A DNA stretch of 58,049 nt from Myxococcales bacterium (GCA_016703425.1 JADJCA010000011.1:1-58049), one strand, 5' to 3'. Positions 1 to 29,582 are shown, counted from the first letter of the stretch. Program-made: numbers and translations. Notes: generated by a model from the sequence alone, not told the origin.

Positions 1-236
1 ACGTTCTTGTTGCCGAAGAGCATGAGCCCCGCCACGAGCTGGCAGCCTCCGCCGAAGAGCAAGCTGAAGACGGCCGCCGTCTTGAGCGCCGCCGTGAAGT
101 GTGCCGGCGCGACCCAACCAGCGAAGGCGATGGGCAGGAGCGCCTCCGCAAGCGATCGCGAGGCCGAGCAGACCGAGCGGAGTCGGGTTGCCAAAACGCC
201 TTGAGTGGGCGGAACGATGTCGATGCGCTGGACCAT
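1..236 (-). CDS. 5'-partial CDS (N-terminus in window, body continues past window start). Predicted membrane protein, possibly a transporter.
   Basis: Reverse-complement translation from the ATG whose complement lies at 236..234 gives MVQRIDIVPPTQGVLATRLRSVCS...LLPIAFAGWVAPAHFTAALKTAAVFSLLFGGGCQLVAGLMLFGNKN. This is hydrophobic and helix-like. It is divergent from the ABC-F gene. It is not in the ORF track because no stop falls inside the window. Confidence 0.35.
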   Translation of the reverse strand, partial: MVQRIDIVPPTQGVLATRLRSVCSASRSLAEALLPIAFAGWVAPAHFTAALKTAAVFSLLFGGGCQLVAGLMLFGNKN

Positions 237-349
237 GGCAAAAGGGGAATCGGCGAGGGGCGCGGCGTCAAGGCTCTCATGTTGCAGCGCAACAACTACC
301 GCCCGTTTCGCGCCTTCCAGCTCGCGCAATCTCTGAGCGCCGCACTAAG

Positions 350-2270
350 GTGCGCGCCGTGCCGGTTCTTTCTGCCCGCGACGTCGAGAAGTTCTACGGC
401 GCGCGAACCGTCCTCAAGTCCGTGACGTTCACGCTTCGGAGCGGCGAGCGCGTTGGGCTCTATTGGCAGAAACGGCACCGGCAAGTCGACGCTCATCGCA
501 TCCTCGCGGGCCTCGAGCCGCCCGATCGTGGCGAAATCGCCGTGCGTCGTGGCGCCAGCGTCGGCCTCTTGGAGCAAGTGCCGGAGCTTACCGCCGGCGA
601 CGCCGCGCCGGATCGTCGCCGAAGGCCTCGCCGCCTGGGCGAAGGTCCGCGCCGCTTACCGAGGTCACGCGCCAAGCTCGAGGGCGCCACCGGCGATCAC
701 GACGCTCCTCGCCGAGCAAGCGAAGTGGGCCACGAGATCGAAGGCCTCGGCGGCTGGGAGCGCGAGCACGAGGTCGAGGCGGTCTTGGGCAACCTCGGCG
801 TCACCAAGACATCGACCGCGACATCGCGAGCATGAGCGGCGGTGAGCGGAGGCGCGTGGCCCTGGCGCGGCTCCTCGTGGCCTCACCGGATCTCGCCATC
901 CTCGACGAGCCGACCAACCACCTCGACGTCGAGACCATCGACTGGCTCGAGGAGCACCTCGAGAAGCGCACCGAGGCGCGGTCTTGCTCGTGACCCACGA
1001 TCGGTATCTCCTCGATCGCGTCTGCTCGCGAACGCTCGAAATCAACGACGGGACGGTCACCGCGTACGACGGCGGCTACGAGACCTTCCCACGCGAGGTG
1101 GTGAGCGCATGGCGCTCGAGGAGCGCACCGAGGCGAACCGGCAGAATTTCCTTCGTCGTGAGCTCGAGTGGCTCGCGCGGCAGCCCAAAGCGCGAACCAC
1201 GAAGCAGAAGGCGCGCATCGAGCGGGCCGAGACGGCGAAGGCCGCGGTACTCGCAAGAAGGACGGAGAGCGTTCAGCTCGCCATCGAAGAGGCCCGCAGC
1301 GGCAAGACGGTCCTCGAACTCCACGGCTTCGGCCTCGACATCGGCGGCCAACGCCTCATCGAGTCGCTGGACCTCTTCCTCACGGAAGGCGAGCGCGTCG
1401 CCATCGTCGGGCGCAACGGCACGGGAAAGACGAGCCTCCTCCGCGCCGTCGTCGGCGAGCTCGCCGCCACGCGCGGCCGGTTGGTGCAGGGCGCCAACAC
1501 CAAGGTCGCCTACTTCGACCAAGAGCGAACCGGCCTCGACCTCGACAAAACCGTCTTTGAAAACGTGAGCGAAGGCGGTGCCGTCGAGATCGGCGGCGTC
1601 AGGCTCGAGCCCCGCGCCTACCTCGAGCGTTTCCTCTTCGACGGCCACGCGCAGCGGCAAAAGGTCGCGTCGCTCTCCGGCGGCGAGCGCGCGAGCCGCT
1701 TTGGCGAAGACGCTGCAAGGCAAGACGAACCTGGTGCTCTTGGACGAGCCGACCAACGATCTCGACGTCGACACGCTGGCCGCGCTCGAGGAGATGCTCG
1801 TGAGCTTCGGCGGCTCGGCCATCGTCGTCACCCACGATCGCTTCTTCCTCGATCGCATCGCGACCTCGCTCCTCGTCTTCGAGGGCGATGGCAAGGTCAC
1901 GCGGTACCCGGGCAACTACGAGACGTACCGGCGCCTCAAGAAGGAGCAGGCGGCCGAGGGCGAACGCGACGCAAAGGCGGAAGCCAAGGCGAGCGTGGCG
2001 CCGAAGGCCTCGGCCAAGGCCGACGCCCCGGAGGCGAAGGCCGCGAAGAGCAAGCTCTCTTACAAGGAGCGAAGCGAGCTCGAAACCCTTCCGGCGCGCA
2101 TCGAGACCGAGGAGCGCGAGATGGGCGCTCTCGAAACGACGCTGTCCGATCCGAACCTCTACAAGGAAGGGCCCGAGCGCCTTCGCGAGCTCACGGCCTC
2201 GCTAGAGGCGAAGAAGAAGCTCGTGGCCGAGCTCTACGTGCGATGGGAAGCCCTCGAAGCGAAGGGCTGA
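350..2270 (+). pseudogene. ABC-F family ATPase (Uup/EttA-like, two ABC cassettes plus C-terminal coiled-coil arm) disrupted by multiple frameshifts
   Basis: Two Walker A motifs ([10 protein letters not shown] near 470 and [13 protein letters not shown] near 1400), two signature motifs ([21 protein letters not shown]) and two Walker B/D-loops ([20 protein letters not shown]) appear across frames 101..835, 453..845, 463..993, 984..1568, 842..2422 and 1578..2270. The reading frame switches at least six times (about 463, 497, 600, 840, 990, 1110, 1690). A GTG at 350 is preceded by an AAGG Shine-Dalgarno-like sequence. The stop is TGA at 2268. Confidence 0.8.
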
Positions 2271-2301
2271 GCAGGTTCCCCTCGAGGATCGGCCCCGTGC
2301 G

Positions 2302-3105
2302 TCAGGGCATCGCTGCAATGATGGGGCGCGCGTCGAGCTTCATCACGCCGTCTTCGCTAAACGATTGGTCGAGGGGAAAGACACTGCTCACGACTCCGCG
2401 CGAGTCCGACGGGTTGCTTTGATTCACAAAGACGTCGATGTAGTGCCACGTGTCGCCCATTCGTGTGAAGGCAACGGACACCGTTGCCGAGCCCGTCGGT
2501 TTCGTAAGGGACGAATCAACCGTCTGGTCCAGCTTCAGCGCAGAGATGAGCGCTGATGGGCGTGGGCCGAGGTCCTTCACCTGTTCACGCGACAGTTCGG
2601 TCAGCACGACGCCGCCGAAGGGCGCCACCACGTCACCCCAAGTACGGGGCTCCGCCGCAACACTCGCGACGACGGACTCGTCGACAGCGACGTCGACCTG
2701 ACCGATGACGTAACGAGCAACGGTCTTCCCCTGCGCGGTGCGCCGGGGCTGCCCAATAGACTTGAGCACACCTCTGCCGCATCGGAACGTGAGTTGGGCG
2801 ATGTGGCTTATGTCCGGACCGTCGAAGTTGATCGACTTGCTTTCGGCCGCGCAGGCGGGAGCCGGGCCGGTCGCGATTTGAATGGCGCCGAAGAGCTTCT
2901 TCAGCTTTCGGTCGAGTCCCACACCGACGGCATCGGAGCCGGGTGTCGATACGGTCGCCCCCGCAGCGGTGCCGAGCGCCTTCTGCAGTTCGGCGTTCGC
3001 CGCACTCACCTGCAGCTCGCCTTGATCGGTCTCCGAGGCATCCTCCGTCGGCCCTGAGGAACACGCCGCCAAGAGCCCGACACACACAACCATGAGCTTC
3101 TTCAT
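2302..3105 (-). CDS. lipoprotein, function unknown
   Basis: ORF 2302..3192 has an internal Met at 3105 starting MKKLMVVCVGLLAACSSG, a signal peptide with an LAAC lipobox. The mature protein is Ser/Thr/Gly-rich with no motif I recognise. Confidence 0.55.
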   Translation of the reverse strand: MKKLMVVCVGLLAACSSGPTEDASETDQGELQVSAANAELQKALGTAAGATVSTPGSDAVGVGLDRKLKKLFGAIQIATGPAPACAAESKSINFDGPDISHIAQLTFRCGRGVLKSIGQPRRTAQGKTVARYVIGQVDVAVDESVVASVAAEPRTWGDVVAPFGGVVLTELSREQVKDLGPRPSALISALKLDQTVDSSLTKPTGSATVSVAFTRMGDTWHYIDVFVNQSNPSDSRGVVSSVFPLDQSFSEDGVMKLDARPIIAAMP

Positions 3106-3385
3106 GACCGACGCGTTCAGCAAGCGCGGTGCCGCAGGCCCACGTGCCTCGTCTCGCGGAGTTGCCTTCCCGCCTCGCAGCGCGATGCACACTCCGCGAT
3201 CTCACGCTGAGGGTCGGCGCTCTATTCGCGCACCCTATCGTGCCGAATTCACGCAAGAAACTTCCCCTCTCGATGCAGCTGGTCGGCGGGCCGGGAACGA
3301 TTTCGGCGAGCCGTGGCGCGCCTCGGCGGCGCACGCTGCCACGATGCTTGACGAGCGTTCCCCGAGCCCGTGCCGCCAAAGGGCG

Positions 3386-3679
3386 CGTCAAGCCTCGTCG
3401 TAAAATGCGCGGATCTCGGCCTCGTACTTCTTGTAGATGACCTTGCGCTTGATCTTCATCGTCGGCGTGAAGCTCGCCCGTCTCGACGCTCAGCTCTGCG
3501 GGAGGATCTTGATCTTCTTGATGGCCTGCACGCGCGCGAGGTCGCGATTCACCGCGTTGATCTCGCCCTGTAGCCAGCGGTGGAGCTTCTCGCACTTCGC
3601 CGCTTCGGGGAGCGTCTTGGCGTCGGAGCCGGCCCGCGAGCGAGCCTTTTTGAGCTTCGTAAGATCGATGGTGAGGAGC
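3386..3679 (-). pseudogene. diverged copy of the fadD 3' end (C-terminal ~98 codons), matching 6581..6874
   Basis: Direct nucleotide comparison: 3386..3679 aligns with 6581..6874 at roughly 90–95% identity, with substitutions and 1-nt indels. Example: gtgaagctcgcccg here versus gtgagctcacccg in the original. The fadD stop complement tca is kept at 3388..3390. The translated fragment is ORF 3490..3702 (-), ...TIDLTKLKKARSRAGSDAKTLPEAAKCEKLHRWLQGEINAVNRDLARVQAIKKIKILP. Confidence 0.8.
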
Positions 3680-4057
3680 AAGGTCACGCGGTACCCGGGC
3701 AACTACGAGACGTACCGGCGCCTCAAGAAGGAGCAGGCGGCCGAGGGCGAACGCGACGCAAAGGCGGAAGCCAAGGCGAGCGTGGCGCCGAAGGCCTCGG
3801 CCAAGGCCGACGCCCCGGGAGGCGAAGGCCGCGAAGAGCAAGCTCTCTTACAAGGAGCGAAGCGAGCTCGAAACCGCTTCCGGCGCGCATCGAGACCGAG
3901 GAGCGCGAGATGGCGCTCTCGAAACGACGCTGTCCGATCCGAACCTCTACAAGGAAGGGCCCGAGCGCCTCCGCGAGCTCACGGCCTCGCTAGAGGCGAA
4001 GAAGAAGCTCGTGGCCGAACTCTACGTGCGCTGGGAAGCGCTCGAGGCGAAGGGCTG
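3680..4057 (+). pseudogene. diverged copy of the ABC-F 3' end (C-terminal ~125 codons), matching 1893..2270
   Basis: 3680..4057 aligns with 1893..2270 (VTRYPGNYETYRRLKKEQAAEGERDAKAEAKASVAPKASAKADAP...LVAELYVRWEALEAKG, stop TGA at 4055..4057). It differs by several substitutions and by indels in G/C homopolymers. The join to the fadD fragment is at gaggagc|aaggtcac, a microhomology. Confidence 0.8.
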
Positions 4058-4099
4058 ACGTGCCGGGGTTGACGTGCCGGGGTTGACGCGCCGGGGCTG
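4058..4099. repeat. 14-bp tandem repeat x3 (cgtgccggggttga / cgtgccggggttga / cgcgccggggctga) directly after the copied ABC-F stop codon
   Basis: Read directly. The unit resembles the end of the ABC-F gene (gaagggctga), so the repeat looks like slippage at the copied gene end. Confidence 0.8.
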
Positions 4100-4290
4100 A
4101 CGCGACGATGCAGAAGGACTTGGCCCGGGAATTCGCTGGCGCTGGCGACTTCGCAGGTGGTGGCGGTGGCTGTGGCCCGCTCGACGACTGTATGGTAGTC
4201 GGGTGCTGATGTGACGGAGCGGTACTTCGCCGGGCAAGTGGAGCGCCGGGTCGACCGGCCTGCCGCTACCAACCGCGGAGCTCTACCTCT

Positions 4291-5821
4291 GTGCCGGCGC
4301 CATCGACGACCTCGCTCCAGCCCGATGTACCGTTGCTGCAACGGCGCCTTCGGACCCTGTTCTGGACCTTCGCGACCTTCTCGTGGATTGCCGTCCTCGC
4401 GCACGCCGTTGTCGGCATGGCAGCGCCGGAGGTGGCCATTCCATTCGCGCGAATGTTCTTCCTGTCGAGCGTCTGCGTAAGTACCGGCGCCGCCGTGCTC
4501 CTACGCCGGCCACGCCCGTGACGACGGTCAACGCGCTCGACCTGGGAGTGACGCTGGTCGTCAGCGGCTGGGTGGCGGCGATGATGCTCTACCCGTTCGC
4601 GCGCAACGATGAGCTCTATCTGGCCTTGGCAGCCAACGGATTCTTCGCCATCGCGCGTTCGTTCTTCTTGCCCGCCTCTCCGCGGCGCACCGCCGCCCTG
4701 GCGACGCTCGGCGCCGTACCGCCGTTGGTGGCAACCCTGTACATCGCGGCCAACGACGCCGGGCGCTTGACGTTGCCGCGGGCGCCTTTCGTGGTGAACG
4801 TCGCGTTTGCGCTCCTCGTACCGGTCGTCCTCGCTTGGGTCGGCGCCACCGTCATCGCGGGGCTGTTCGCCGAGGTCCGCGCCGCGCGCCGCCTGGGGCA
4901 ATACACGCTCGATGGAGAAAAACAGGAGGGCGGCATGGGGGTCGTCCATCGGGCGCACCACGCGATGCGGCGGCCACGGCGGTCAAGTTGCTACCGGCGG
5001 AGAAGAGCAGCGAGGCCGCAGTGGCTGGCTTCGAGCGCGAAGTCCAGCTGACGGCGCAGCTGACGGGCCCTCACGTCGTCGCCATTTTCGACTACGGGCG
5101 CTCGGACGACGGCACGTTCTATTATGCGATGGAGTATCTCGATGGCCTCGACCTCGAGCGGCTGGTGGTCGGCTGGGGCCCGCAACCGCCGGCTCGCGTA
5201 GCTGGCATCTTGGCTCAAGTATGCGATGCCCTCGCGGAGGCGCACGCTCGCGGATTGGTCCATCGCGACATCAAGCCGGCGAACATCCTCTTGTGTGAGC
5301 GTGGAACGCGGTGCGATGTGGCGAAGGTTGTCGACTTCGGGCTCGTGCGGCACGTGGCCGCAGAGGATGGCGTCGTGGCCGGCACGCCGGGTTTTTTGGC
5401 GCCCGAGGCGCTTGCGGGGCCCAGCGAGCTCTCCGTCAGCGTCGATCTCTACGCCGTCGGCGCCGTGGCGTACTTTCTCCTCGCGGGGCGCTTGCCCTTC
5501 GAAGGCGACACAGCCGCCAAGCTCATCGAGGCTCAGCTACGCGAGCGTGCGCCGACGCTCTCGTCGCGTGGAATCTCCATCGATGCCGACCTCGAAGCGC
5601 TCGTGCTCCGATGCCTTGAGCGGGAGCCGGCGTTGCGCCCCGCGTCCGCGGCGGAGCTCGGAGCGCAGCTGTCCTCGCTGGTGGGCAAGCTCAGTCCGTG
5701 GGGGGAGCCGGATGCGCGCCAGTGGTGGAGCAGCTTCAGGCGCCAGCGCGCCGAGCGCCAAGAGTCCGACGTCGCCGACACGGCTCCCGTAGCCTCGACG
5801 CTGCTGATCGCACATCGATAG
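4291..5821 (+). CDS. Hanks-type Ser/Thr protein kinase with an N-terminal polytopic membrane domain (at least 2 frameshifts)
   Basis: Frames 4291..4521 and 4383..5051 encode about 5–6 hydrophobic helices (LFWTFATFSWIAVLAHAVV, LGVTLVVSGWVAAMMLYPF, FVVNVAFALLVPVVLAWVGATVIAGLF). They end in the glycine-rich loop GEKQEGGMGVVHRAHH. Frame 4835..5821 continues with AVKLLPAEK, HRDIKPANILL, DFGLV, GTPGFLAPE and stops at 5819. Frameshifts lie near 4495 and 4965. Confidence 0.75.
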
Positions 5822-5967
5822 CCACGGGCCGCGCACAAGGCGTCCTCGCTCCGGAACAGCTTCACAGTGTCGTCCCGTAGGCCGACGGTTATGCGGTTGT
5901 GCGGCACGCGCGCGGTGACCAACGCGGCGCGCTCCGTGTCTTCGGCGAATCGTGGGGGCGAGCCGCC

Positions 5968-6535
5968 TCAGCCGGACCATTCACCGGCGCCATAAAAGAC
6001 GAAGCCAGGGATGCCGCTCGCTTCTAGCGCATCCTTGACCTTCTCATGGACGACGATGGCGCTGGCGTTCTCCGCCAGACGAAACAGCAAGGCGCCGCCG
6101 GTCTTCGACTCGTCAATCACGAGCGATTCGAAGCCGAGATCGCCCGGTGACCCCGATCCGCCACCCAAGTACCGAGAGGCCACTAGGTCTGCGCAGGCCA
6201 CGAGCCCGACGATGTTGTAGGCCTTGTAGTCGCGGTATTCGGCGCCCGTGTCCGGGTTCTTGAGCACGGCGTCGAGGTATTGAATGTTGTCGACTCCGAC
6301 AACATTCCAGCGTTTTCGCCACATCGTCGCGCATCACCGGGATCGACTTCTCGTAGTACATGGGCTTGGGCTGGCCCTTGAACCGCGGGTTGAGCGTGTA
6401 GACGATGGGCGTTGGCACCGCCTCCGTGAGCGGGCGACCTTGGCGCCAGTTCCCCTCGATGCCGGGCCCGGTGGCGATCGGCATGATGGGGTGCCTGCCT
6501 TCGCCGACCATCACGTAATAGCTCACCGGGATCAC
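5968..6535 (-). CDS. polymorphic-toxin immunity-like protein (resembles Imm11/DUF1629), one frameshift
   Basis: The N-terminal part is in frame 6113..6535 (MIPVSYYVMVGEGRHPIMPIATGPGIEGNWRQGRPLTEAVPTPIVYTLNPRFKGQPKPMYYEKSIPV...). The C-terminal part is in frame 5968..6324 (...YLDAVLKNPDTGAEYRDYKAYNIVGLVACADLVASRYLGGGSGSPGDLGFESLVIDESKTGGALLFRLAENASAIVVHEKVKDALEASGIPGFVFYGAGEWSG). The tail pattern IDESK.GG.LFRL...VHEKVK..LE.SG..GF.F matches, from memory, the DUF1629/Imm11 family that is abundant in myxobacteria. The family name is unverified. Confidence 0.5.
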
Positions 6536-6582
6536 CCACCGCTCTCAGCGCTGCCCCTTGCCACGTCCACCAAGAGGCAGCG

Positions 6583-8367
6583 TCAAGCCTCGTCGTAAAA
6601 TGCGCGGATCTCGGCCTCGTACTTCTTGTAGATGACCTTGCGCTTGATCTTCATCGTCGGCGTGAGCTCACCCGTCTCGACGCTCAACTCGGCAGGAAGG
6701 ATCTTAATCTTCTTGATGGCCTGCACGCGCGCGAGGTCGCGATTCACCGCGTCGACCTCGCCCTGCAGCCAGCGGTGGAGCTTCTCGCACTTCGCCGCTT
6801 CGGGGAGCGTCTTGGCGTCGGAGCCGGCCCGCGAGCGAGCCTCCTCGAGCTTCGTAAGATCGATGGTGAGGAGCGCCGCGAGGTGCTTCTCGCGATCGCC
6901 GACGACGACGGCATGACCGACCACCGAGATGTCGCGGAGCTTTCCTTCGAGCACCTGCGGCGCGATGTTCTCGCCTCCGGCGGTGATGAGCAGATCCTTC
7001 TTTCGATCGGTGATCCGAAGGAAGCCCTCCTTGTCGAACTCCCCGATGTCGCCCGAATGAAGCCAGCCGTCGGCGTCGAGCGCCTCGGCGGTGGCCTCCG
7101 GGTTCTTGTAGTAGCCCTTGAAGACGTGGCGACCGCGCATGCAGATTTCGCCGTCTTCGGCGATCTTGGTCTCCGTGCCGGGAATGACCGTCCCCACGGA
7201 GCCGGTCTTGTAGCGATTGGGGAGCGACACCGTCGCGGGGCCCGTGCACTCGCTCATGCCGTAGACCTCCATGAGCGGAATGCCGAGGCTCAGGAAGAAC
7301 TCGAGGGTGCCCCGCGAGATGGGCGCCGCCGACGTGATGGCGAAGCGACACCGATCGAGGCCGAGCGCTACACGCACCTTCTTGAAGACGAGGGCGTTGG
7401 CCACCTCGTACAACATGGGGCGGGCCGTGCCGCCTTGATCGGCGTAACCGCCGGCCAAACCTTGCTTGCGCGCCCAGACCGCGATCTTCTTCTTGAGGCC
7501 CGTGTTCTTGGACCCCGCCTCGACCATCTTGGCCTGGATCTTCTCCCAGACGCGGGGCACGCCGAAGAAGATCGTGGGGTGCACCTCGCGGAGGTTTTCG
7601 CCGAGCTTTTCCATGCTCTCTGCGAAATACGTGCACCCTGCAGCCGCCATGGGCCCGTGGATGCTCACGACCTGCTCGGCGATGTGGCTGAGGGGCAAAT
7701 ACGAGAGGAACGTCTCCTCGGAGAAGTCGATGAGGGTCTTCACCGCCTCGGCCACGAAGGTGATGTTGTCGTGGCTGATCATCACCGCCTTCGGATCGCC
7801 CGTCGTGCCGGAGGTGTAGATGAGCGTGCAGACGTCATCGGGCTTTTGGCCGGCGATGCGCGCTTCGAGATCCGCTTCGGGTACGTCGCGGCCGAGCTCG
7901 AGCACCTGGTCGAAGGTGTAGACGCCCTCGCCTTCGACTTTGCCCTGCATGACGACGAACGCCTTGACCTTCGGCAGACGGTCTCTGACCGAGAGGAACT
8001 TGTTGAGCTGCGCCTGGTCCTCGACGACGACCACGGCCGAGTCGCTGTGGTCGGCGATGTATTGGCACTGATCGGGGGTGTTGGTCGTGTAGATGTTCGC
8101 CGGGAAGCCGCCGGCGTAGATCGCCGCCAGATCGGCCACGACCCACGCGACGCAGTTGAAACCGATGATAGAGACGCCCTGCTTCGGCTCGAGGCCGAGC
8201 TTCATGAAGCCGCGCGCGCAGAGCCGGACCTTGTCGCGGTAGTCCTTCCACGAGAGCGTTTGGTAGGTGCCGCCGACCTTGTGGCCGAGCGCTGGCCTCG
8301 AGGCGTGACGCGACGCCACAGACTCCATCACCTCCATCACCGTTCGCTTGTTCACGTTCGCCTCCAC
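6583..8367 (-). CDS. fadD: long-chain fatty-acid--CoA ligase (AMP-binding/ANL superfamily)
   Basis: 594-aa intact ORF. AMP-binding motif YTSGTTGDPKAVMISHDN, YGMSECTG, the GWLHSGDIGEFDKEGFLRITDRKKDLL linker, and the C-terminal ...IKRKVIYKKYEAEIRAFYDEA typical of FadD/FACS enzymes. Confidence 0.9.
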   Translation of the reverse strand: MEANVNKRTVMEVMESVASRHASRPALGHKVGGTYQTLSWKDYRDKVRLCARGFMKLGLEPKQGVSIIGFNCVAWVVADLAAIYAGGFPANIYTTNTPDQCQYIADHSDSAVVVVEDQAQLNKFLSVRDRLPKVKAFVVMQGKVEGEGVYTFDQVLELGRDVPEADLEARIAGQKPDDVCTLIYTSGTTGDPKAVMISHDNITFVAEAVKTLIDFSEETFLSYLPLSHIAEQVVSIHGPMAAAGCTYFAESMEKLGENLREVHPTIFFGVPRVWEKIQAKMVEAGSKNTGLKKKIAVWARKQGLAGGYADQGGTARPMLYEVANALVFKKVRVALGLDRCRFAITSAAPISRGTLEFFLSLGIPLMEVYGMSECTGPATVSLPNRYKTGSVGTVIPGTETKIAEDGEICMRGRHVFKGYYKNPEATAEALDADGWLHSGDIGEFDKEGFLRITDRKKDLLITAGGENIAPQVLEGKLRDISVVGHAVVVGDREKHLAALLTIDLTKLEEARSRAGSDAKTLPEAAKCEKLHRWLQGEVDAVNRDLARVQAIKKIKILPAELSVETGELTPTMKIKRKVIYKKYEAEIRAFYDEA

Positions 8368-8456
8368 TCCCGTTCCCGTTCGATCGCGCCGCGAAGGCGG
8401 CAGCGGATTGTCTCTATTGCTGGCGGGAGCGCAAGGGGCGCGCCGCCGAGCCTTCG

Positions 8457-9299
8457 TCAGCCGCGCCGCATCTTCGCGGCCATCTGCTCGCCCAGCTGAG
8501 CCGCGCGGAGGCTGGCCGTTTCAACGGCGTCGATGAGCGTCTTGCGTAGCGCTCCCGATTCGAGCGTGTGAAGGCCTGCGATGGCCGTCCCGCCGGGGCT
8601 CGTCACTTGGTCCTTCAGCCGCCCGGGATGTTCGCCGGTCTCGAGCAAGAGCTTGGCCGAGCCGTAGACGGTCTGCGCCGCGAGCATGAGCGACGTGTCG
8701 CGGTGAAGGCCCATCTTGACGCCGCCGTCGGCGAGCGCCTCGATGATGAGCATGACGTAGGCGGGGCCCGAGCCCGAGAGACCGGTGACGGCGTCGAGAA
8801 GCACCTCGTCCAGGATCGCTGTCTTTCCCACCGCGGCGAAGAGCTGACTGGCCGTGGTCATGTCGGAATCGGTGGCGTGCGTCCCTGCCGAGAGGGCCGT
8901 GGCCCCCGCGAGGACGATGGCCGGCGTGTTAGGCATGGCGCGCACGACATGCACGCCGTCGGCGAGCCGCGACTCGAGCGACTCAATGGGAACGCCCGCT
9001 GCGACGGACACCACGAGGGTCTTGGTGGAGACGTCTTTGCCAATGGCGAGGAGCGCCTTGTCGACGACCTGCGGTTTGACGGCGATCACGAGCACGTCGA
9101 CGGACTTCGCCAGCTCGTGGTTGTCGGTGGTGACGCCAACGCCGTGGGCGCTCGCGAGCGCATCGAGACGCTCGCGCTTCACGTCGCTGACGACGATGTG
9201 CTCAGGGCCGACGAGCTTCGATTGAAGGAGGCCCTTCACGAGCGCCGCGGCCATGTTGCCACCACCCAAAAACCCGATCGTCTTCGGCCAGCCCTGCAT
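8457..9299 (-). CDS. proC: pyrroline-5-carboxylate reductase
   Basis: 280 aa. N-terminal Rossmann motif IGFLGGGNMAAALVKGL, then ...VRAMPNTPA... and ...GLSGSGPAY..., which are ProC hallmarks. Confidence 0.9.
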   Translation of the reverse strand: MQGWPKTIGFLGGGNMAAALVKGLLQSKLVGPEHIVVSDVKRERLDALASAHGVGVTTDNHELAKSVDVLVIAVKPQVVDKALLAIGKDVSTKTLVVSVAAGVPIESLESRLADGVHVVRAMPNTPAIVLAGATALSAGTHATDSDMTTASQLFAAVGKTAILDEVLLDAVTGLSGSGPAYVMLIIEALADGGVKMGLHRDTSLMLAAQTVYGSAKLLLETGEHPGRLKDQVTSPGGTAIAGLHTLESGALRKTLIDAVETASLRAAQLGEQMAAKMRRG

Positions 9300-9368
9300 A
9301 ACGCGCGAGTCTACTCCCCGGCGTGCCGAGAAGTTGGCCGAATCGGCCCGTTTTGCGAGGGGTAGAGG

Positions 9369-9884
9369 ATGCGCAGCCTCGCACTTCTCTTGGGCCTCTT
9401 GGCCGGTTGCAGCGCCTTTCCGGGTCTCGGCTTGGGCACCGGCGGTGGCGATGCCGGCGGGGGCTCCAGCGCCGCGGGCACTTCGGCCGGCGACGGTGGC
9501 ACCGGCACAAAGGGGGTCGACTGCATCGTGGAGCCGGAGAGCGGCGCCACGTTGTGCACGGCGGTCTCAACCTGCCCGTCTTTGGCCGTAGACCACGACA
9601 TCTACCCGCATTGCGGCTTTCGACCTGGCAGCCCCCGACTCGAGCTCGCCTGCGCGTGCGCCGGCGCCGTGTGCCCGCTAGGCACCGCCGACACCTGCGA
9701 GCAGGCCAAGAAGCTCTTGAGCGCGCAGAGCGAGTCGCAAGTCTGCGCGCAGGTGGCCGAGGATCGCTGCACCACCAAGTCGGCGGCCCCCACCACGTCG
9801 CCGTCGGCGACCTCCACATGCGACAAAGCCTGCGCCGGCGAGTGTGGTGGCGCCCCCGGCTGCCTCAAGCTCTGCGGCTGCTGA
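9369..9884 (+). CDS. Cys-rich lipoprotein, function unknown
   Basis: MRSLALLLGLLAGCSAF (LAGC lipobox), a Gly-rich linker and a Cys-rich C-terminus (CTAVSTCPS, CACAGAVCPLGTADTCEQ, CDKACAGECGGAPGCLKLCGC). It is divergent from proC with a 70-bp gap. Confidence 0.6.
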   Translation: MRSLALLLGLLAGCSAFPGLGLGTGGGDAGGGSSAAGTSAGDGGTGTKGVDCIVEPESGATLCTAVSTCPSLAVDHDIYPHCGFRPGSPRLELACACAGAVCPLGTADTCEQAKKLLSAQSESQVCAQVAEDRCTTKSAAPTTSPSATSTCDKACAGECGGAPGCLKLCGC

Positions 9885-9932
9885 CGCGCATCCTTTGGCG
9901 CAGCGTGTTCGCGCGGGACAACCGTTCGCCTC

Positions 9933-12900
9933 TCAGCGAACGGTCTCGATGACGGAGACTTCACCCCCAACGCCGCCGCAGAAGAGCAGGCCTCGATCCG
10001 CAAACGCCATGGTCGACACGCCGTGCTCCAGGCGCACGCGTGCGCGCTCGTCGAGCTCCCGATCGAACACCGTGACGATCTGGCCGGCGGACACCGCTAC
10101 GCGCTCCGCGACTTCGTCGAAGGAGAGCGCGAGGGCGCTGCCGGGCCCGCGCACGGCGCGCTCGACGGCAAGCGGCGTCCCGCCGAGGCGCGCGATGTCA
10201 CCGTTCTTCAAGACCACGACGAGCGCCATGTCGACGCCGCCGGCGACGTGCGTCACCGGTGACGCCACGACGAGAGGCTTCGAAACGGATAGCGAGACTG
10301 CGTTGATGACCCAAATCTTGCGGCCGTGGACGCAAGCAAAGTGCGTGTCGTCGAGCGACGCGAGCAGGCTCCCCTTGGTCACGACCGCTCGAGGGAGCGA
10401 GATCCGGTTCGCGCGCCCCGCCGTCTCGACGACCGAGAAGAGCCCGTTGTCCGCGGCGACCCAGACGTGACTGCCGGCGCGGGCCATGCTGGAGACACCA
10501 CGCAGCGGGAGCGCGCGCCCCACGGCCGTGCCGCTCACGAGGTCGATGCGCGTGACGCCGCTTTGCCACGCCGCGAGCAGCGTTCGCCCCGTCGCGCCGA
10601 CGACGGCGCCCACGAGCCCGCCCTTTTCCGCCGTGGTCCTCCACCCGGCCACGATCTCCCGCGTCTCGGCGTCCCACTGCAGCACCATCGCGTCGGCACC
10701 GAAGGAGAACGCCCGCGCCCGCGCGGCGTCGGTCAACATCACGAGCACGCGTTCGGTGTGTTGTGCGATGGGCAGGGTGCTCGAGTGTCCCGTCTCCTCC
10801 CAAAGCTCGACGCGAACGCCGGCGCCCCCCGTCAGGGCGAGCGCCGACAAAGGATCGAGCACCAAGGCCGCGATGGGCCCTGACGCCCTCACCGTCTGAA
10901 CGATGGCTTTGGCCGCGACGTCGACGCGCAGGAGTCCCGGGCTCTTGCCACCCACCGCCACGAGCAACGTGGCGCCGTCCTTGTGCCATGCGACGCGGAC
11001 ACCTCCCGCGACGGCGACGCTTCCACGCGACGCGAGCGTTACGCCGTCGAGCCACTCGACCGCACGCGGCCGCAGGATCGCCACGAGATTGGGCTCACGA
11101 TGAAAGGCGAGGTCGAGGATCGGCGAGGGGCGCGCCGGCGCCTTGGCCTTGGCCTTGGGCCTGGATTTGGGCGACGCCGCGCAGACCGCACCGTCGCGCT
11201 CGTCGATCCAATAAACGCGCTCGCCGGCGAGGACGAGGATGAGCGGCCTGTCGGGATGGGCCACCATGCGGAGCACCGGACCCTCGAGCTTCCGCGAGAA
11301 CACGACGTCGCGACTTCCCTTTTGCAGGAGCCCGGCCCTCGTGCCCACGACGACATCGCCATCGCTCGCCACGACGATCGACGAGACGGCCTTCGCGCCG
11401 ATGAGGCGGATCGAGCCGGCGAGCTCTCCGCTGCGCGCATCAAAGAGCACGACGTAGCCATTTTCGCAGGCGACCGCCAGCCGATCGCCGGCGCGGTCGA
11501 ACGTCATGGCCGACGCGTTCTCGAGATCATCGCGACCGCCGATGGCAGTGCCGTCGGCGTCAAAGAGCGTCACCTTCGTCTCGCCGAGGGCCGCGAAGCG
11601 CGAGCCCGCGCGGTTGCCGGCGAGCTCGCGAACGGGCGGCCCGAAGACCCAAGGCCCCCCGCCGAGTCGTGCCGCAGGAAGCGTCGGGCGCGCCGCGCCG
11701 GGCGCCACGACCCGCGAACGAAGCGCCTCGCGCACGCGCTCCGAGGCGCCGTAGACGTCGACCCGCGCGATGTCGACGGCGCTGGCGCGCACCATGGCGT
11801 TTTCGTGATCGAAGAGCGAGATGAGAAACGCGTCGGCGCCGGGCGTGTGGAAGCGCGCCAGCGCCTCGAGCGCGTCGAAGGTCGCCTCCGAGCGATCGGC
11901 CACCGTGACCTCGGAGTAGCTCGGGAACGCGACCATCGTGCGCACGGCGGCGAGGGCGGGCACCTCGAGCTCGGCGCCGCACTCGGCGTCAGCGCCCTTG
12001 CGAATGGCGTTGTGGCGAAAGATGGCGTCGGGATCGCGCAGGGCGCCGACGAGGCCCCGCACGCCTTCGCGCCGGAAGAGCGCGTCGACGCGGGGACGGT
12101 CCAAGAAGTTCGGCTTGACGACGATCCCGACGCTCCCCAAGACGTTCGCCGCGGCGGTGCGCACCCGCGAGTGCTCAGCGTCGACGAAACGTCGCGCCGT
12201 ATGCAGGAGCTCGTCGGGCGGTGCGTGCACCGCCAAGAGGCGGAGCGCCGTCTCGTGGAGCTCCCGCGCCTCGAAGCGATTGGCCATGAAGACGCGGAGC
12301 GCGTGCCGCACGACGTCGAGATCGACGCTTCGTCCGAGCCGTGACCGCAACGCCTCGAGCATCAAGCGCGGATAGACGAGCTGGTCCTTCGTCCCGACGA
12401 GCCGCGCCGCGACGGCCTCGACGTGCGACGCGGACCCGCGATCGGCGATGCGAGCGAGCGCGTACATGGCCACGTTGCGATGACGCCCGTCGAGGAGGCG
12501 CAGGAGCGCGTGGGTCGCCTGCCCGTCGCCGAGCCAGCCGAGGCCGACGATGGCGCGCGCGATGACGCTGTCCATGTCGGGCGGCGGCTCGGTGACGAGC
12601 GAGAGGAGAACCGGCATGGCCCGCGGATCACCGATGCGCCCGAGGGCCAGGCACGCGTTGGCGACGATGCGACGATGTTCGGTTTGCTCGCGCTCCGCGG
12701 CGGGCATCGACGACGACGCGAGTTGGATCAACTCGGGAACCGCCGTGGCCGCTCCAAGGTGCCCCAAGGCGTCGATGACGGCGGCGAGCAGCTCGCCCGA
12801 CGCCCCGAGCCGACTCGTGAGCGCGGGCACGGCGCGCGCGTCGCCGAGACGCCCGAGCGCCAGCGCGAAGGGCGCGAAGTCCGCGTGCGCGACGAAATAC

Positions 12901-13172
12901 GCGGTGAATCGCGCGCCCGTGGCGCCGAGCGCCTCGACCGTCTCGTAGAGCTCCCGGCGAAAGACCTTTCCTTCGCGGCGGTACTGCTCCTCCTCGAGGA
13001 ACTTCAGCCGACTGCTGTCGATGGCGAGCGACGGGTCGCTGCGGCGGTAGACCGCGTAGAGCTCGCGCACTGTGGCTGGCTCGTCTACGAAGTCCCAAGC
13101 CAACGACGGGATGTCCCGCCCGACGTGTTGCTCCAGGAGCTCCTGGACGCGAGCGGCGACCGCCACGCTCAC
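9933..13172 (-). CDS. large HEAT-repeat (PBS-lyase type) plus beta-propeller repeat protein
   Basis: 1079-aa intact ORF. The N-terminal half has repeated LG.LG...AVP.L / ALG.IGDPRA.P.L units (HEAT/PBS-lyase-like). The C-terminal half has repeated short-strand motifs (VACENGYVVLFD, VASDGDVVVGTRAG, LVAVGGKSPGLL) consistent with WD40/PQQ-like propeller blades. Confidence 0.65.
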   Translation of the reverse strand: MSVAVAARVQELLEQHVGRDIPSLAWDFVDEPATVRELYAVYRRSDPSLAIDSSRLKFLEEEQYRREGKVFRRELYETVEALGATGARFTAYFVAHADFAPFALALGRLGDARAVPALTSRLGASGELLAAVIDALGHLGAATAVPELIQLASSSMPAAEREQTEHRRIVANACLALGRIGDPRAMPVLLSLVTEPPPDMDSVIARAIVGLGWLGDGQATHALLRLLDGRHRNVAMYALARIADRGSASHVEAVAARLVGTKDQLVYPRLMLEALRSRLGRSVDLDVVRHALRVFMANRFEARELHETALRLLAVHAPPDELLHTARRFVDAEHSRVRTAAANVLGSVGIVVKPNFLDRPRVDALFRREGVRGLVGALRDPDAIFRHNAIRKGADAECGAELEVPALAAVRTMVAFPSYSEVTVADRSEATFDALEALARFHTPGADAFLISLFDHENAMVRASAVDIARVDVYGASERVREALRSRVVAPGAARPTLPAARLGGGPWVFGPPVRELAGNRAGSRFAALGETKVTLFDADGTAIGGRDDLENASAMTFDRAGDRLAVACENGYVVLFDARSGELAGSIRLIGAKAVSSIVVASDGDVVVGTRAGLLQKGSRDVVFSRKLEGPVLRMVAHPDRPLILVLAGERVYWIDERDGAVCAASPKSRPKAKAKAPARPSPILDLAFHREPNLVAILRPRAVEWLDGVTLASRGSVAVAGGVRVAWHKDGATLLVAVGGKSPGLLRVDVAAKAIVQTVRASGPIAALVLDPLSALALTGGAGVRVELWEETGHSSTLPIAQHTERVLVMLTDAARARAFSFGADAMVLQWDAETREIVAGWRTTAEKGGLVGAVVGATGRTLLAAWQSGVTRIDLVSGTAVGRALPLRGVSSMARAGSHVWVAADNGLFSVVETAGRANRISLPRAVVTKGSLLASLDDTHFACVHGRKIWVINAVSLSVSKPLVVASPVTHVAGGVDMALVVVLKNGDIARLGGTPLAVERAVRGPGSALALSFDEVAERVAVSAGQIVTVFDRELDERARVRLEHGVSTMAFADRGLLFCGGVGGEVSVIETVR

Positions 13173-13252
13173 GTCACGCCTCGCTGCACCGTGGCTCGCG
13201 CTCCGCGACGGCTGCGACAGGTCGCCGCTTCACGCTAGCCCGCGGCCTCAAG

Positions 13253-14206
13253 CTACACCAACGAAGCCAAACGAGCGCGTTGAGCGTCGCCGTGAGCCTT
13301 GAGCGACTCGAGAATGATGACGGCGGTCTCCTCGATGGCGCGCCCGGTCACGTCGATGACGGGCCATTCGGGGTGGGCCCGGAAGATCTCCCGCGCGTAG
13401 TCGAGCTCTTCTTTGACCTGATCGCGGAGGCCGTAGCTTGCGTCGACCGGCATGCCGAGCTGCTTGAGCCGGGCTTTTCGGATTTCGACGAGCTTGTCGA
13501 GCTCGATGGTCAGCCCAACGATCCGCGACTGCGGCGCTTCCTCGAGCTCCGGCGGCGTCGCGATGCCGAGCACCAGGGGCAGGTTGGCGACGCGCAGGCC
13601 GCGCTGCGCGAGGATGGTGGAGAGCGGCGTCTTCGACGTGCGGCTCACTCCCACGAGGACGATGTCCGCCTTCTTGAAGTTGCGCGGCTCCTTGCCGTCG
13701 TCGCTCTTGACGGTGAACTCCACGGCCTCGATGCGGCGGAAGTATTCCTCACTGAGCGGCATCATCCCGCTCGGCAGGTTGATGGGCTGCCGATCGAGGA
13801 ACGTCGAGAGCTTGCCGATGAGCGAGCCGATGAGGTCGAGCGCCTCGACGCGGAGCTCCTTGCTCGACACGTAGATGAACTCACGCAGCTCGGGGCTCAC
13901 CACGGTAAAGACCACGACGGCCCCGTCTTGTGCCGCTCGCTCAAGCAGCGGACGCGCCTGGTCGGGCGTGCGCACGCGGGTGTGCACGCGGAGCTGCGCA
14001 CCCGAGTGGGGAAACTGGAGCATCGCGGCGCGAACGACCCGCTCGGCGGTTTCACCGGTCGAGTCGCTGAGAACGTCAATCCACCTGAGGTCCGACACGC
14101 GGGCGAGTCTACCTGGCCCTCGCAGAACGCGCCCAAGATCATGGACCTCGGTCGATCCACAACGGGCGATCCAAAGAACGACGCGGGCTTTTGCCCACAT
14201 CGTCAT
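13253..14206 (-). CDS. ppsR: PEP synthetase regulatory protein (PSRP, kinase/pyrophosphorylase, DUF299)
   Basis: P-loop LVGVSRTSKTPLS, plus ...FTVVSPELREFI... and a C-terminal ...EIRKARL...YASLDQV-like region, characteristic of bifunctional PSRP. The start is set at MTMW (14206). A GTG start further in is possible. Confidence 0.75.
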   Translation of the reverse strand: MTMWAKARVVLWIARCGSTEVHDLGRVLRGPGRLARVSDLRWIDVLSDSTGETAERVVRAAMLQFPHSGAQLRVHTRVRTPDQARPLLERAAQDGAVVVFTVVSPELREFIYVSSKELRVEALDLIGSLIGKLSTFLDRQPINLPSGMMPLSEEYFRRIEAVEFTVKSDDGKEPRNFKKADIVLVGVSRTSKTPLSTILAQRGLRVANLPLVLGIATPPELEEAPQSRIVGLTIELDKLVEIRKARLKQLGMPVDASYGLRDQVKEELDYAREIFRAHPEWPVIDVTGRAIEETAVIILESLKAHGDAQRARLASLV

Positions 14207-14314
14207 TCGTCGGCGTTTCCCCCAAGAGACAACGGCACACATCCTGCTGCGGGAGTGCTGTCACCTCCGCCAGGTGAGCTTTGGGGGACTCCGCATCCCA
14301 GAAAGCGCTCGACC

Positions 14315-15115: not shown

Positions 15116-15202
15116 GCGGCGCGGGAAGCGACCGATCGCCAGATCGGTGGCTGATGGGGCGACGCCTCGCCGCGCGCCCAAACGCGCTACACTTCGGTCC
15201 GC

Positions 15203-16729: not shown

Positions 16730-16770
16730 GCCGCGCTCGTGTCTCGGCATCGTTTTGCATAGACTCGCGG

Positions 16771-17770: not shown

Positions 17771-17816
17771 AGGCGGGCCCCCTCGGCGCGCCAACCTCAC
17801 GGCGGTCACTCGCAGG

Positions 17817-18598: not shown

Positions 18599-18618
18599 GC
18601 GGAGGCGACGAGCGCGCT

Positions 18619-29168: not shown

Positions 29169-29198
29169 GATCGGTCGATGGTACTCTTCGGAGGTCTC

Positions 29199-29582
29199 AT
29201 GCATCAGCGGCTTCTCTCCCCGGCGCGTCTCTCCACGGCGCTCCTCGCCACAGCTCTCCAAGCGGCCCTCGCGGGATGCGTCGCTGGGGTAACGGCGACG
29301 CCGCCGCGAGGGCAAGTCGTGAACAGTCCCCCGCCGCCGACGCTCGTCGAGACCCGCTCACCACCACCAGGTCCGCAGGCGACGTGGGTGGCAGGCTACT
29401 GGCATTGGAACGGCGCCACGTACTCGTGGATCCCGGGACACTGGGAGCAAGCACCGCCAGGCATGGCCTGGTACGGCCCGACCTACGGCACCTCGCCCGA
29501 CGGCAGCTACCTCTACGAACCCGGGGCTTTCCGTCCCGGCGCGCCGACGGCGGTGCCGCCGAAGGCCAACGCCCTTCGGTGA
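29199..29582 (+). CDS. small lipoprotein with Trp/Tyr-rich C-terminal repeats
   Basis: MHQRLLSPARLSTALLATALQAALAGC (lipobox LAGC). The C-terminus is WVAGYWHWNGATYSWIPGHWEQAPPGMAWYGPTYG, with repeated W/Y-x-x-G units. Confidence 0.55.
   Translation: MHQRLLSPARLSTALLATALQAALAGCVAGVTATPPRGQVVNSPPPPTLVETRSPPPGPQATWVAGYWHWNGATYSWIPGHWEQAPPGMAWYGPTYGTSPDGSYLYEPGAFRPGAPTAVPPKANALR

What the first reader, a model, noticed from the sequence alone, without database searches (positions are those of the whole stretch)
5968..6535. Orphan Imm11/DUF1629-like immunity gene with no cognate toxin, next to the fadD gene whose 3' end is duplicated elsewhere
The C-terminal signature (LVIDESKTGGALLFRLAENASAIVVHEKVKDALEASGIPGFVFYGAG) looks like the immunity-protein family often found downstream of polymorphic-toxin genes (Rhs/CdiA/T6SS-effector type C-terminal toxins) and massively expanded as orphans in myxobacteria. 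Here it sits alone between a kinase and fadD, with no toxin-domain ORF, Rhs/YD repeats or T6SS gene visible, and it carries a frameshift. Orphan immunity genes are thought to protect against kin-delivered toxins, or they are relics of lost toxin cassettes. Its closeness to the rearrangement scar (fadD 3' end copied to 3386) fits a once-mobile cassette.
Basis: partly seen in the sequence, partly recalled or inferred. Interest (0 to 1): 0.5.

Follow-up and report, generated by a model that had tools for sequence, protein, structure and literature searches.

The report
Toxin-less AHH-nuclease immunity gene (Imm11)
This is a stand-alone copy of a well-known bacterial "antidote" gene (Imm11 family, which neutralises AHH nuclease toxins injected by neighbouring cells) sitting in a strain-variable slot between two core genes; its frameshift is absent from independent assemblies, so the finding is real but ordinary.

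Summary
Confirmed: window 5968-6526 (- strand) encodes an Imm11/DUF1629 protein (Pfam 34.6 bits, cut-off 22.1). Joined across a +1 frameshift at 6307/6308 it is a full-length 185-aa protein, 80% identical to intact homologs. Its predicted fold matches only PDB 6a4c (M. xanthus MXAN_0049, the immunity protein of AHH nuclease MXAN_0050).

In other genomes the gene directly upstream is an AHH nuclease, in sampled loci within VgrG-DUF2169-PAAR-like (type VI secretion) clusters. This holds for 44 of 79 genome loci and nearly all close metagenome relatives. About 40% are toxin-less, so orphans are common.

The 58-kb window has no AHH, PAAR-like, DUF2169 or DUF6484 relative; the ORFs scanned encode housekeeping or signalling proteins.

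An independent contig (99.6% identical, kinase-Imm11-fadD) and a second assembly carry the intact gene. This contig also has 1-nt indels splitting several conserved genes, so the frameshift is probably an assembly error.

The fadD 3' copy is real. It abuts a copy of the ABC-F 3' end, as a tandem duplication would leave. The closest relative (99.5% identical backbone) has one unit holding a third, unrelated cassette.

Verdict: a new member of a known kind in a recombination hot spot. No toxin relic or mobile-element gene was found.

The parts
5968..6526 (-). Imm11-family immunity gene (185 codons once the extra base is removed). The start is probably GTG 6526; GTG 6535 is the alternative used by the gene caller on L094.
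   Evidence: Pfam PF07791 34.6 bits. Full-length homologs up to 80% identical. All 18 invariant family positions are kept. The AF2 model (pLDDT 89.5) matches PDB 6a4c at TMq 0.70.
6307..6308 (-). Frameshift site: one extra C on the + strand (G on the coding strand, CTGGAAT against CTGAAT).
   Evidence: It is the only gap in 1483 aligned bases against the independent contig L094, which encodes the intact protein P0121. The two tblastn HSPs change frame between 6297 and 6308.
6527..6582 (-). 56-nt spacer between the fadD stop codon and the Imm11 start. No terminator-like site, so co-transcription with fadD is plausible (inference).
   Evidence: Terminator scan. The alignment with toxin-linked loci shows no convincing remnant of a toxin 3' end.
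6583..8367 (-). fadD-like acyl-CoA synthetase, intact. Its last ~410 nt (6583-6991) form a diverged allele linked to the kinase-Imm11 cassette.
   Evidence: Pfam AMP-binding 245 bits. 15 of the 55 mismatches to L087 over 12.7 kb fall in 6586-6991. Three distinct 3' alleles.
4291..5821 (+). Membrane-anchored Ser/Thr protein kinase gene, read in three frames in this assembly (shifts near 4470-4530 and 4965-4975). It is the other gene of the cassette.
   Evidence: Pkinase 126.9 bits. Three-frame translation. The joined translation covers 95% of a 535-aa homolog at 55% identity.
3680..4058 (+). Non-functional copy of the last ~380 nt of the ABC-F gene (matches 1893-2270 at 97.9%), ending at the stop codon.
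   Evidence: All 5 substitutions are synonymous. The 3 one-base indels break the frame.
3369..3679 (-). Non-functional copy of the last ~290 nt of fadD plus ~19 nt downstream (matches 6564-6874 at 94.5%).
   Evidence: There are 6 synonymous and 4 replacement codon changes, plus two compensating one-base indels. The allele differs from both the window's own fadD and that of L087.
3665..3680 (.). Chimeric joint where the fadD fragment meets the ABC-F fragment, the order expected at a tandem-duplication junction. About 11 of 15 bases are microhomologous.
   Evidence: Overlapping alignments (3388-3679 matches fadD, 3665-4058 matches ABC-F).
2302..3105 (-). Predicted lipoprotein (MKKLMVVCVGLLAAC...), the cassette of the first unit. 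It is unrelated to the 302-307-aa protein at the same position in relatives L087, L089 and L090.
   Evidence: ORF list. No Pfam family. No similarity to the L087 or L089 proteins by blastp, tblastn or blastn.
340..2270 (+). ABC-F ATPase gene, convergent with fadD. About 22 indel events relative to the intact 639-aa gene of L087, all before position 1700.
   Evidence: Three-frame translation. Indel list. ABC_tran_CTD hit.

Best explanation
Window 5968-6526 (- strand) is a toxin-less ('orphan') immunity gene. It belongs to the Imm11 clade whose members are normally encoded directly after AHH-type HNH/EndoVII nuclease effectors of type VI secretion clusters.

The expected mechanism is inferred from the family. 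The ~185-aa alpha+beta protein stays in the cytoplasm and binds an incoming AHH nuclease domain delivered by a neighbouring cell, blocking its DNase activity. The cell is thereby protected without making the toxin itself.

Here the gene lies 56 nt downstream of fadD on the same strand, with no terminator-like site between them, so it is probably co-transcribed. Together with a Ser/Thr kinase gene it forms a 2.5-kb accessory cassette in the intergenic slot between the convergent core genes ABC-F and fadD. That slot holds different cassettes in near-identical strains and is exchanged by homologous recombination within the ends of the flanking genes.

In this contig two cassettes are stacked, separated by a fadD'/ABC-F' chimeric joint.

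The single-base frameshift is most likely a consensus error of this assembly, or at most a very recent strain-specific lesion. The gene is intact in the population.
For: Shown:
- Pfam Imm11 above the gathering score.
- More than 120 full-length homologs; all invariant positions kept.
- Profile hit to PDB 6a4c MXAN_0049 at E=1.2e-10. The predicted fold (pLDDT 89.5, pTM 0.85) matches only 6a4c: E=8e-11, TMq 0.70.
- In homolog loci the upstream gene is an AHH nuclease (Pfam AHH 28.3 and 32.5 bits against a cut-off of 22.3). In the sampled loci L001-L003 and L006 it lies in a VgrG-DUF6484-DUF2169-Tox-PAAR-like-AHH-Imm11 order.
- An AHH HMM finds the toxin in 44 of 79 genome loci (43 upstream on the same strand, directly or behind another Imm11 gene) and in 12 of 16 metagenome loci, including L095-L100, the six full-length matches of 62-73% identity.
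- The intact allele is on L094 (1477/1483 identical, the only gap at the frameshift) and in the assembly of run ERR12160659.
- Scattered 1-nt indels split conserved genes elsewhere in the window: ABC-F about 22 events, a TPR gene at 17512, a 260-aa gene at 18110, a UDPGP gene near 28540, an SNF2 helicase near 22990.
- Relative L087 has a 99.53% identical backbone and the order proC-fadD-(302-aa protein)-ABC-F, with no kinase, no Imm11 and no duplication.
- The three cassettes are unrelated to one another, and the flank alleles are distinct.

From the literature:
- MXAN_0049 binds and neutralises nuclease MXAN_0050.
- Imm11 proteins cross-protect at 46% identity (PMC12077181, PMC12077131).
- Imm11 is associated with Tox-AHH, Tox-HNH and Tox-SHH (PMC3482391).
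Against: - In this contig the reading frame is broken, and the 118-aa ORF that remains lacks the N-terminal strands and first helix of the fold.
- The cassette region carries three frameshifts in 2.3 kb (kinase two, Imm11 one). That is about 8 times the indel density measured against L087 in the 12.7 kb to the right, which also fits a decaying cassette.
- No expression or binding data exist.
- The rest of the genome could not be searched, so an unlinked cognate toxin or a T6SS elsewhere is not excluded.
- No independent contig spans the 3679|3680 joint, so the stacked arrangement rests on this assembly alone.
Confidence: 0.65

Rival explanations
1. Genuine pseudogene. The kinase-Imm11 cassette is a decaying, non-functional remnant in this strain, and the frameshift is a real mutation.
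For: Three frameshifts lie within the 2.5-kb cassette. The flanking gene fragments also carry indels. Disrupted orphan homologs exist elsewhere: L024 (Leptospira alstonii) has a +1 frameshift, and L030 has an internal deletion.
Against: The Imm11 reading frame has no other lesion. All invariant residues are kept, and it is 99.6% identical at DNA level to an intact allele. Indel-only damage also hits housekeeping genes across the window, which is the signature of consensus errors, not of selective decay.
Confidence: 0.25
2. Relic of a deleted toxin-immunity operon. An AHH toxin and T6SS adaptor genes once stood upstream and were lost in place.
For: The closest non-conspecific relatives nearly all have an AHH gene 4-21 nt upstream. 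A weak 'LLVDVA' resemblance to toxin C-termini (GLVDAG, GLVGVA) lies in the 56-nt spacer.
Against: The resemblance is 4 of 6 residues and about 10 of 18 bases, not above chance in GC-rich DNA. fadD ends 56 nt upstream, leaving no room for a toxin. No AHH HMM hit was found at E up to 10 anywhere in the window. The cassette boundary coincides with the fadD stop codon, as expected for cassette exchange rather than an internal deletion.
Confidence: 0.15
3. The duplicated flanks and stacked cassettes are an assembly artefact of a mixed-strain population, not a real chromosome structure.
For: At least three haplotypes of this slot co-exist in public data. A low-quality patch lies at 1-1700. No independent contig carries the joint.
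Against: The joint falls inside two coding sequences, at about 11 of 15 bases of microhomology. An assembler would not invent that from a strain bubble. The two flank copies are distinct alleles, not collapsed repeats.
Confidence: 0.3
4. Not an immunity protein: a housekeeping or unrelated function.
For: None found. Only the C-terminal half aligns to the Pfam model.
Against: Family, fold and conserved gene neighbourhood all point to AHH immunity. NCBIfam gave no housekeeping family.
Confidence: 0.03

Closest known systems
MXAN_0049 (PDB 6a4c), immunity protein of the T6SS AHH nuclease MXAN_0050 of Myxococcus xanthus (PMC12077181; Gong et al. 2018 as cited there)
   Same: Same Pfam family (PF07791). 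The predicted fold matches over the whole length: TMq 0.70, E=8e-11. The profile hit is E=1.2e-10. Homologs of the window gene follow AHH nucleases in VgrG/PAAR-like clusters, as MXAN_0049 follows MXAN_0050.
   Different: Only about 22% identical and 30 residues shorter. The window gene has no adjacent toxin and is frameshifted in this contig.
AHH-Imm11 effector-immunity modules in VgrG-DUF6484-DUF2169-Tox-PAAR-like clusters (for example loci L001 from a Nitrospirales bin, L006 and L009 from Aquabacterium)
   Same: The Imm11 proteins are 65-78% identical to the window protein and have the same length of 185 aa.
   Different: The window lacks relatives of all the other module proteins that were queried (AHH, Tox-PAAR-like, DUF2169, DUF6484 and the 354-aa protein). 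VgrG itself was not queried. The gene has been transplanted next to fadD.
Orphan immunity genes and polyimmunity loci of polymorphic toxin systems (Zhang et al. 2012, PMC3482391)
   Same: An immunity gene without its toxin. Imm11 is listed there among families that form homogeneous polyimmunity loci. In this survey, 35 of 79 genome loci have no AHH gene within the sequence fetched.
   Different: A single copy, not an array. It sits in a core-gene intergenic slot together with a kinase gene.

Membership tests
Imm11 / DUF1629 (Pfam PF07791) | Score above the Pfam gathering threshold | tested here: met
   34.6 bits against 22.1 for the 118-aa ORF, and 33.9 bits for the joined protein. Only profile positions 86-192 align.
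Imm11 / DUF1629 (Pfam PF07791) | Full-length similarity to family members, with the conserved positions kept | tested here: met
   Up to 80% identity over 98% of the query. All 18 invariant columns of a 32-sequence alignment are kept.
Imm11 / DUF1629 (Pfam PF07791) | alpha+beta fold of the prototype MXAN_0049 | tested here: met
   The AF2 model has pLDDT 89.5. The only significant PDB match is 6a4c: prob 1.00, TMq 0.70.
Imm11 / DUF1629 (Pfam PF07791) | Gene lies immediately downstream of a polymorphic-toxin gene (Tox-AHH, Tox-HNH or Tox-SHH) | tested here: not met
   In the window fadD is upstream, and no AHH hit occurs in 58 kb. The feature is met in 44 of 79 homolog loci, so its absence here defines an orphan and does not exclude membership.
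Imm11 / DUF1629 (Pfam PF07791) | Uninterrupted reading frame | tested here: inconclusive
   Broken in this contig at 6307/6308. Intact in L094 and in the assembly of run ERR12160659. Reads were not available.
Imm11 / DUF1629 (Pfam PF07791) | Binds and neutralises a cognate nuclease toxin | not testable with these tools
   Shown experimentally only for M. xanthus members (PMC12077181, PMC12077131).
T6SS effector-immunity locus | VgrG, PAAR or PAAR-like protein, adaptor (DUF2169) and effector genes nearby | tested here: not met
   No tblastn hit for the PAAR-like, DUF2169, DUF6484, 354-aa or AHH proteins. VgrG itself was not used as a query. The 35 or so window ORFs and fragments scanned with Pfam gave only housekeeping or signalling families or no hit.
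Mobile genetic element or integrative island | Integrase or transposase, terminal inverted repeats, or short target-site duplication | tested here: not met
   The only ORFs in 4059-6563 with coding signal or homology are the kinase and Imm11. No inverted repeat flanks the region. The direct repeats are 310-380-bp gene ends, not target-site duplications.
Tandem duplication / Campbell-type merodiploid | Head-to-tail repeat of a unit, with a novel joint that links the unit's end to its start | tested here: met
   Unit 1 is 1891-3679 and unit 2 is 3678-6874. The joint is at 3665-3680. The two units carry different inserts. Support from independent reads was not available.

The most novel reading that the evidence does not exclude
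The locus is a caught-in-the-act intermediate of accessory-cassette capture. A ~3.2-kb fragment from a related strain (ABC-F 3' end, kinase, Imm11, fadD 3' end) was circularised at a 15-nt microhomology and integrated by a single homologous crossover. That stacked a second cassette, bringing an immunity gene against AHH nucleases, beside the resident one. On this reading, immunity genes can spread between kin through core-gene-flanked slots without any mobile-element machinery, possibly from DNA of killed neighbours.
Probability: 0.25. Interest if true: 0.4.

Novelty: new member of a known kind. Interest (0 to 1): 0.2.

Why it matters
The result places the gene in a specific, experimentally characterised system: AHH nuclease with Imm11 immunity, used for T6SS-mediated kin discrimination in myxobacteria. 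It shows that toxin-less copies are common in this clade, about 40% of the surveyed loci. That fits the published finding that Imm11 proteins cross-protect against diverged toxins.

For annotation, the deposited 118-aa 'hypothetical protein' (MBK6694609.1) is a truncated call of a 185-aa immunity protein. Several neighbouring 'pseudogenes' are probably consensus errors.

The only mildly unusual aspect is the slot itself. It holds three unrelated cassettes in strains with a 99.5% identical backbone, and this contig shows a stacked two-cassette arrangement.

Tried and rejected
- **Toxin search in the window.** tblastn with the AHH, PAAR-like, DUF2169, DUF6484 and downstream proteins of L001 and L006 gave nothing. 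An AHH HMM built from 38 upstream proteins gave nothing either.
- **Toxin remnant upstream of Imm11.** The alignment of the 120 nt upstream of the start with 16 homolog loci shows only a sub-significant LLVDVA resemblance.
- **NCBIfam.** No family for the joined protein.
- **Exact look-ups.** P0046, fadD and the joint-spanning 70-aa ORF are not on record in the contig index.
- **Genome scan.** The GTDB-representative scan did not return the source MAG; the best hit was 69% identical.
- **Metagenome scan.** The JGI scan found no near-identical contig, so the left junction of the kinase cassette could not be checked in independent data.
- **Kinase homolog search.** The best hit was only 55% identical, so there is no conspecific intact kinase to compare.
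- **Promoter and terminator scan of 3300-6900.** Uninformative.
- **Spacer 5822-5967 and cassette X (2271-3368).** They match nothing fetched except L094.
- **Programmed frameshift.** Considered because L024 shifts at nearly the same codon, and rejected. The intact allele exists, and the two sites share only a G/C run.
- **Synonymous bias in the flank copies.** 11 synonymous against 4 replacement codon changes rule out neutral decay of both copies. They cannot separate in-place divergence from an allelic origin.

Full report
**What is in the sequence**

On the minus strand, ORF 5968..6324 (118 aa) matches Pfam PF07791 (Imm11, formerly DUF1629). The hit is E=1.5e-8, 34.6 bits against a gathering score of 22.1, over profile positions 87-192 of 194.

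Upstream, in a different frame, 6526..6308 encodes the missing N-terminus. A translation joined across the two frames retrieves more than 120 proteins of about 185 aa, up to 80% identical over 98% of the query. tblastn with one of them gives two HSPs: 6526-6308 (aa 1-73) and 6297-5971 (aa 77-185).

With one base removed the protein is 185 aa. It begins MSYYVMV at GTG 6526, as its homologs do, and keeps all 18 invariant positions of a 32-sequence alignment.

**What the family does**

The profile of the alignment hits one solved structure, 6a4c, 'MXAN_0049' (E=1.2e-10). An AlphaFold2 model of the corrected protein has pLDDT 89.5 and pTM 0.85. It matches only that structure: probability 1.00, TMq 0.70, 22% identity.

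According to PMC12077181 and PMC12077131:
- MXAN_0049 is the immunity protein that binds and neutralises the T6SS-delivered AHH/EndoVII nuclease MXAN_0050 of Myxococcus xanthus.
- Strain DK1622 has 14 ahh loci and 20 imm11 genes.
- Imm11 proteins protect against non-cognate toxins when the immunity proteins are as little as 46% identical.

Zhang et al. 2012 (PMC3482391) defined Imm11 as an alpha+beta immunity family linked to Tox-AHH, Tox-HNH and Tox-SHH.

**Gene neighbourhood of homologs**

In a Nitrospirales-type contig and in the contig of the 78%-identical homolog, the order is VgrG, DUF6484, DUF2169, a 354-aa protein, Tox-PAAR-like, a 315-317-aa protein, then Imm11. The 315-317-aa proteins pass the Pfam AHH threshold (28.3 and 32.5 bits against 22.3).

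I built an HMM from 38 such upstream proteins.
- It finds the nuclease in 44 of 79 loci from species-representative genomes. In 43 of these it lies upstream on the same strand, directly or behind another Imm11 gene.
- It finds the nuclease in 12 of 16 JGI metagenome loci. These include L095-L100, the six full-length matches, which are 62-73% identical to the window protein.
- 35 of the 79 genome loci have no AHH gene in the sequence fetched. Three of these lie at contig edges, so roughly 40% are toxin-less.
- The toxin-less set includes Corallococcus, Myxococcus and Archangium, and a Bacteroidetes locus between recQ and a lactamase-fold gene.

Orphan copies are thus a normal state of this clade.

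**The window has no toxin**

tblastn with the AHH, PAAR-like, DUF2169, DUF6484, 354-aa and downstream proteins found nothing. The AHH HMM found nothing in any six-frame ORF of 40 aa or more at E up to 10. VgrG itself and Rhs/YD repeats were not queried directly.

The 35 or so window ORFs and fragments scanned with Pfam encode housekeeping or signalling proteins or have no Pfam family. They include proC, a HEAT/WD40 protein, Kinase-PPPase, kinases, an SNF2 helicase, an HD-GAF protein, GGDEF-HDOD, histidine kinases, a LysR regulator, a halogenase-like oxidoreductase and a cytochrome c.

The 56 nt between the fadD stop (6583) and the Imm11 start show no convincing remnant of a toxin 3' end.

**Is the frameshift real?**

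The 118-aa product is the deposited protein MBK6694609.1, 'MAG: Myxococcales bacterium', on a 496-kb contig. Its 90% cluster holds one other member, P0121, an intact 188-aa protein.

P0121 is encoded on L094, a 1482-bp contig of another assembly (GCA_020054605.1). L094 aligns to window 5253-6735 with 1477/1483 identities and a single gap. That gap is the frameshift: the window has CC where L094 has C, at 6307/6308. A contig assembled from sequencing run ERR12160659 encodes the same intact protein.

This contig also shows many other one-base indels in conserved genes:
- About 22 indel events in the ABC-F gene before position 1700, relative to the intact 639-aa gene of L087.
- One-base deletions at 17512 (a TPR gene) and 18110.
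- A UDP-glucose pyrophosphorylase-family gene whose Pfam profile positions 48-180 and 186-340 lie in different frames near 28540.
- An SNF2 helicase whose Helicase_C end lies in another frame near 22990.
- Two shifts in the neighbouring kinase.

Indel-only damage to housekeeping genes is what consensus errors look like. I therefore rate the Imm11 frameshift as probably an assembly error (about two in three). A very recent strain-specific lesion is the alternative. From memory only, and not tested here, the locus-tag series of this MAG resembles that of long-read activated-sludge MAGs, which would fit.

**The rearrangement next to it**

The fadD 3' end is indeed duplicated: 3369-3679 matches 6564-6874 at 94.5%. 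The duplicate abuts a second one: 3678-4058 matches 1891-2270 at 97.9%. That second segment is the last 380 nt of the convergent ABC-F gene and ends at its stop codon.

The order, fadD fragment then ABC-F fragment, is what a tandem duplication junction looks like. The joint lies in about 11 of 15 bases of microhomology at 3665-3679.

The two units are:
- Unit 1: 1891-3679, carrying a predicted lipoprotein gene (2302-3105).
- Unit 2: 3678-6874, carrying the kinase and Imm11.

The closest relative found, L087 (a 2.79-Mb contig of GCA_964269505.1), is 99.53% identical over window 6583-19294. It has a single unit, proC-fadD-(302-aa protein)-ABC-F, with no kinase, Imm11 or duplication. Its 302-aa protein is unrelated to the window's lipoprotein.

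So three unrelated cassettes occupy the same slot, bounded by the two stop codons. Each is linked to its own allele of the last 300-400 nt of the flanking genes. Of the 55 mismatches to L087 over 12.7 kb, 15 fall in 6586-6991.

This is the pattern of cassette exchange by homologous recombination in flanking core genes. No integrase, transposase or inverted repeat is present.

The stacked arrangement could arise by single-crossover integration of a circularised fragment from a related strain. I could not find an independent contig that spans the joint, so a mixed-strain assembly artefact remains possible (about 0.3).

**Mechanism, and which steps are shown**

Shown:
- Family, fold and conserved toxin partner in relatives.
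- Absence of that partner from the 58-kb window.
- Intactness of the gene in independent assemblies.
- Variability of the slot.

Inferred:
- The protein binds and inhibits AHH nucleases injected by neighbours.
- It is co-transcribed with fadD; no terminator-like site lies between them.
- It confers protection without a cognate toxin. The cross-immunity data from M. xanthus make this plausible.

**Comparison and novelty**

The gene works like MXAN_0049 and is a member of Imm11 by sequence and fold. It fails only the neighbourhood criterion, which is what 'orphan' means.

Orphan immunity genes, polyimmunity loci and AHH-Imm11 pairs are all described. This is a new member of a known kind, with a low interest score.

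The most novel reading not excluded is that the stacked cassettes are a snapshot of immunity-gene capture by recombination between kin (probability about 0.25).

Noticed in passing
window 1-1700: The ABC-F ATPase gene runs through all three frames. It has about 22 indel events (32 gap columns) and 25 mismatches against the intact 639-aa gene of L087, mostly after GC/TC contexts. No indels occur between 1700 and 2271. It looks like an unpolished patch of the assembly.
   Followed up: partly
window 28075-29216 (-) and 22980-23431 (+): Two more conserved genes are split by frame changes. In a UDPGP-family gene, Pfam profile positions 48-180 and 186-340 lie in different frames. In an SNF2 helicase, the end of Helicase_C lies in a different frame from the 1130-aa ORF.
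   Followed up: partly
window 17512 and 18110: One-base deletions relative to L087 lie inside a TPR gene and a 260-aa gene. The one at 18110 sits in a small cluster of mismatches.
   Followed up: no
window 4291-5821 (+): A Ser/Thr kinase with an N-terminal multi-helix membrane region is read in three frames, with shifts near 4470-4530 and 4965-4975. The second looks like a missing C in a C-run within ...HAMRRP|TAVKLLP. The best homolog is only 55% identical.
   Followed up: partly
window 2271-3368, 4059-6563; L087 12718-13719: The intergenic slot between the convergent ABC-F and fadD genes holds three unrelated cassettes in strains whose backbone is 99.5% identical. They are a 267-aa lipoprotein, the kinase plus Imm11, and a 302-307-aa secreted protein. 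Homology breaks at the two stop codons.
   Followed up: yes
window 6586-6991: A divergence island lies in the fadD 3' end. It holds 15 of the 55 mismatches to L087 over 12.7 kb, within 410 nt, which suggests a recombination tract linked to the cassette.
   Followed up: partly
L024 10001-10556 (Leptospira alstonii str. 79601); L030 1668-2200: Other toxin-less homologs are also disrupted. L024 has a +1 G insertion just before the same GVDNIQ motif as in the window, with a diverged Imm11 copy upstream. L030 has an internal deletion with a frame change.
   Followed up: partly
L034, L044, L070 (Candidatus Yonathbacteria MAG); L067 (Woesearchaeota MAG): Imm11 homologs (35-42% identical) occur on contigs binned to a CPR bacterium (three loci, one with a 29-bit AHH remnant upstream) and to a DPANN archaeon. 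This could be real transfer or binning contamination.
   Followed up: no
P0001-P0120; L008-L030: Proteins 60-80% identical to the window protein occur in Nitrospirales, Bacteroidetes, Burkholderiales, Fibrobacteres, Leptospira and Myxococcota. This indicates wide horizontal spread of this AHH-Imm11 clade.
   Followed up: partly
L014 7255-8724 (Corallococcus sp. CA053C): The orphan homolog there is preceded by a 489-aa ORF whose C-terminus looks, by eye only, like an IS66-type transposase. This hints at a different route to orphan copies.
   Followed up: no
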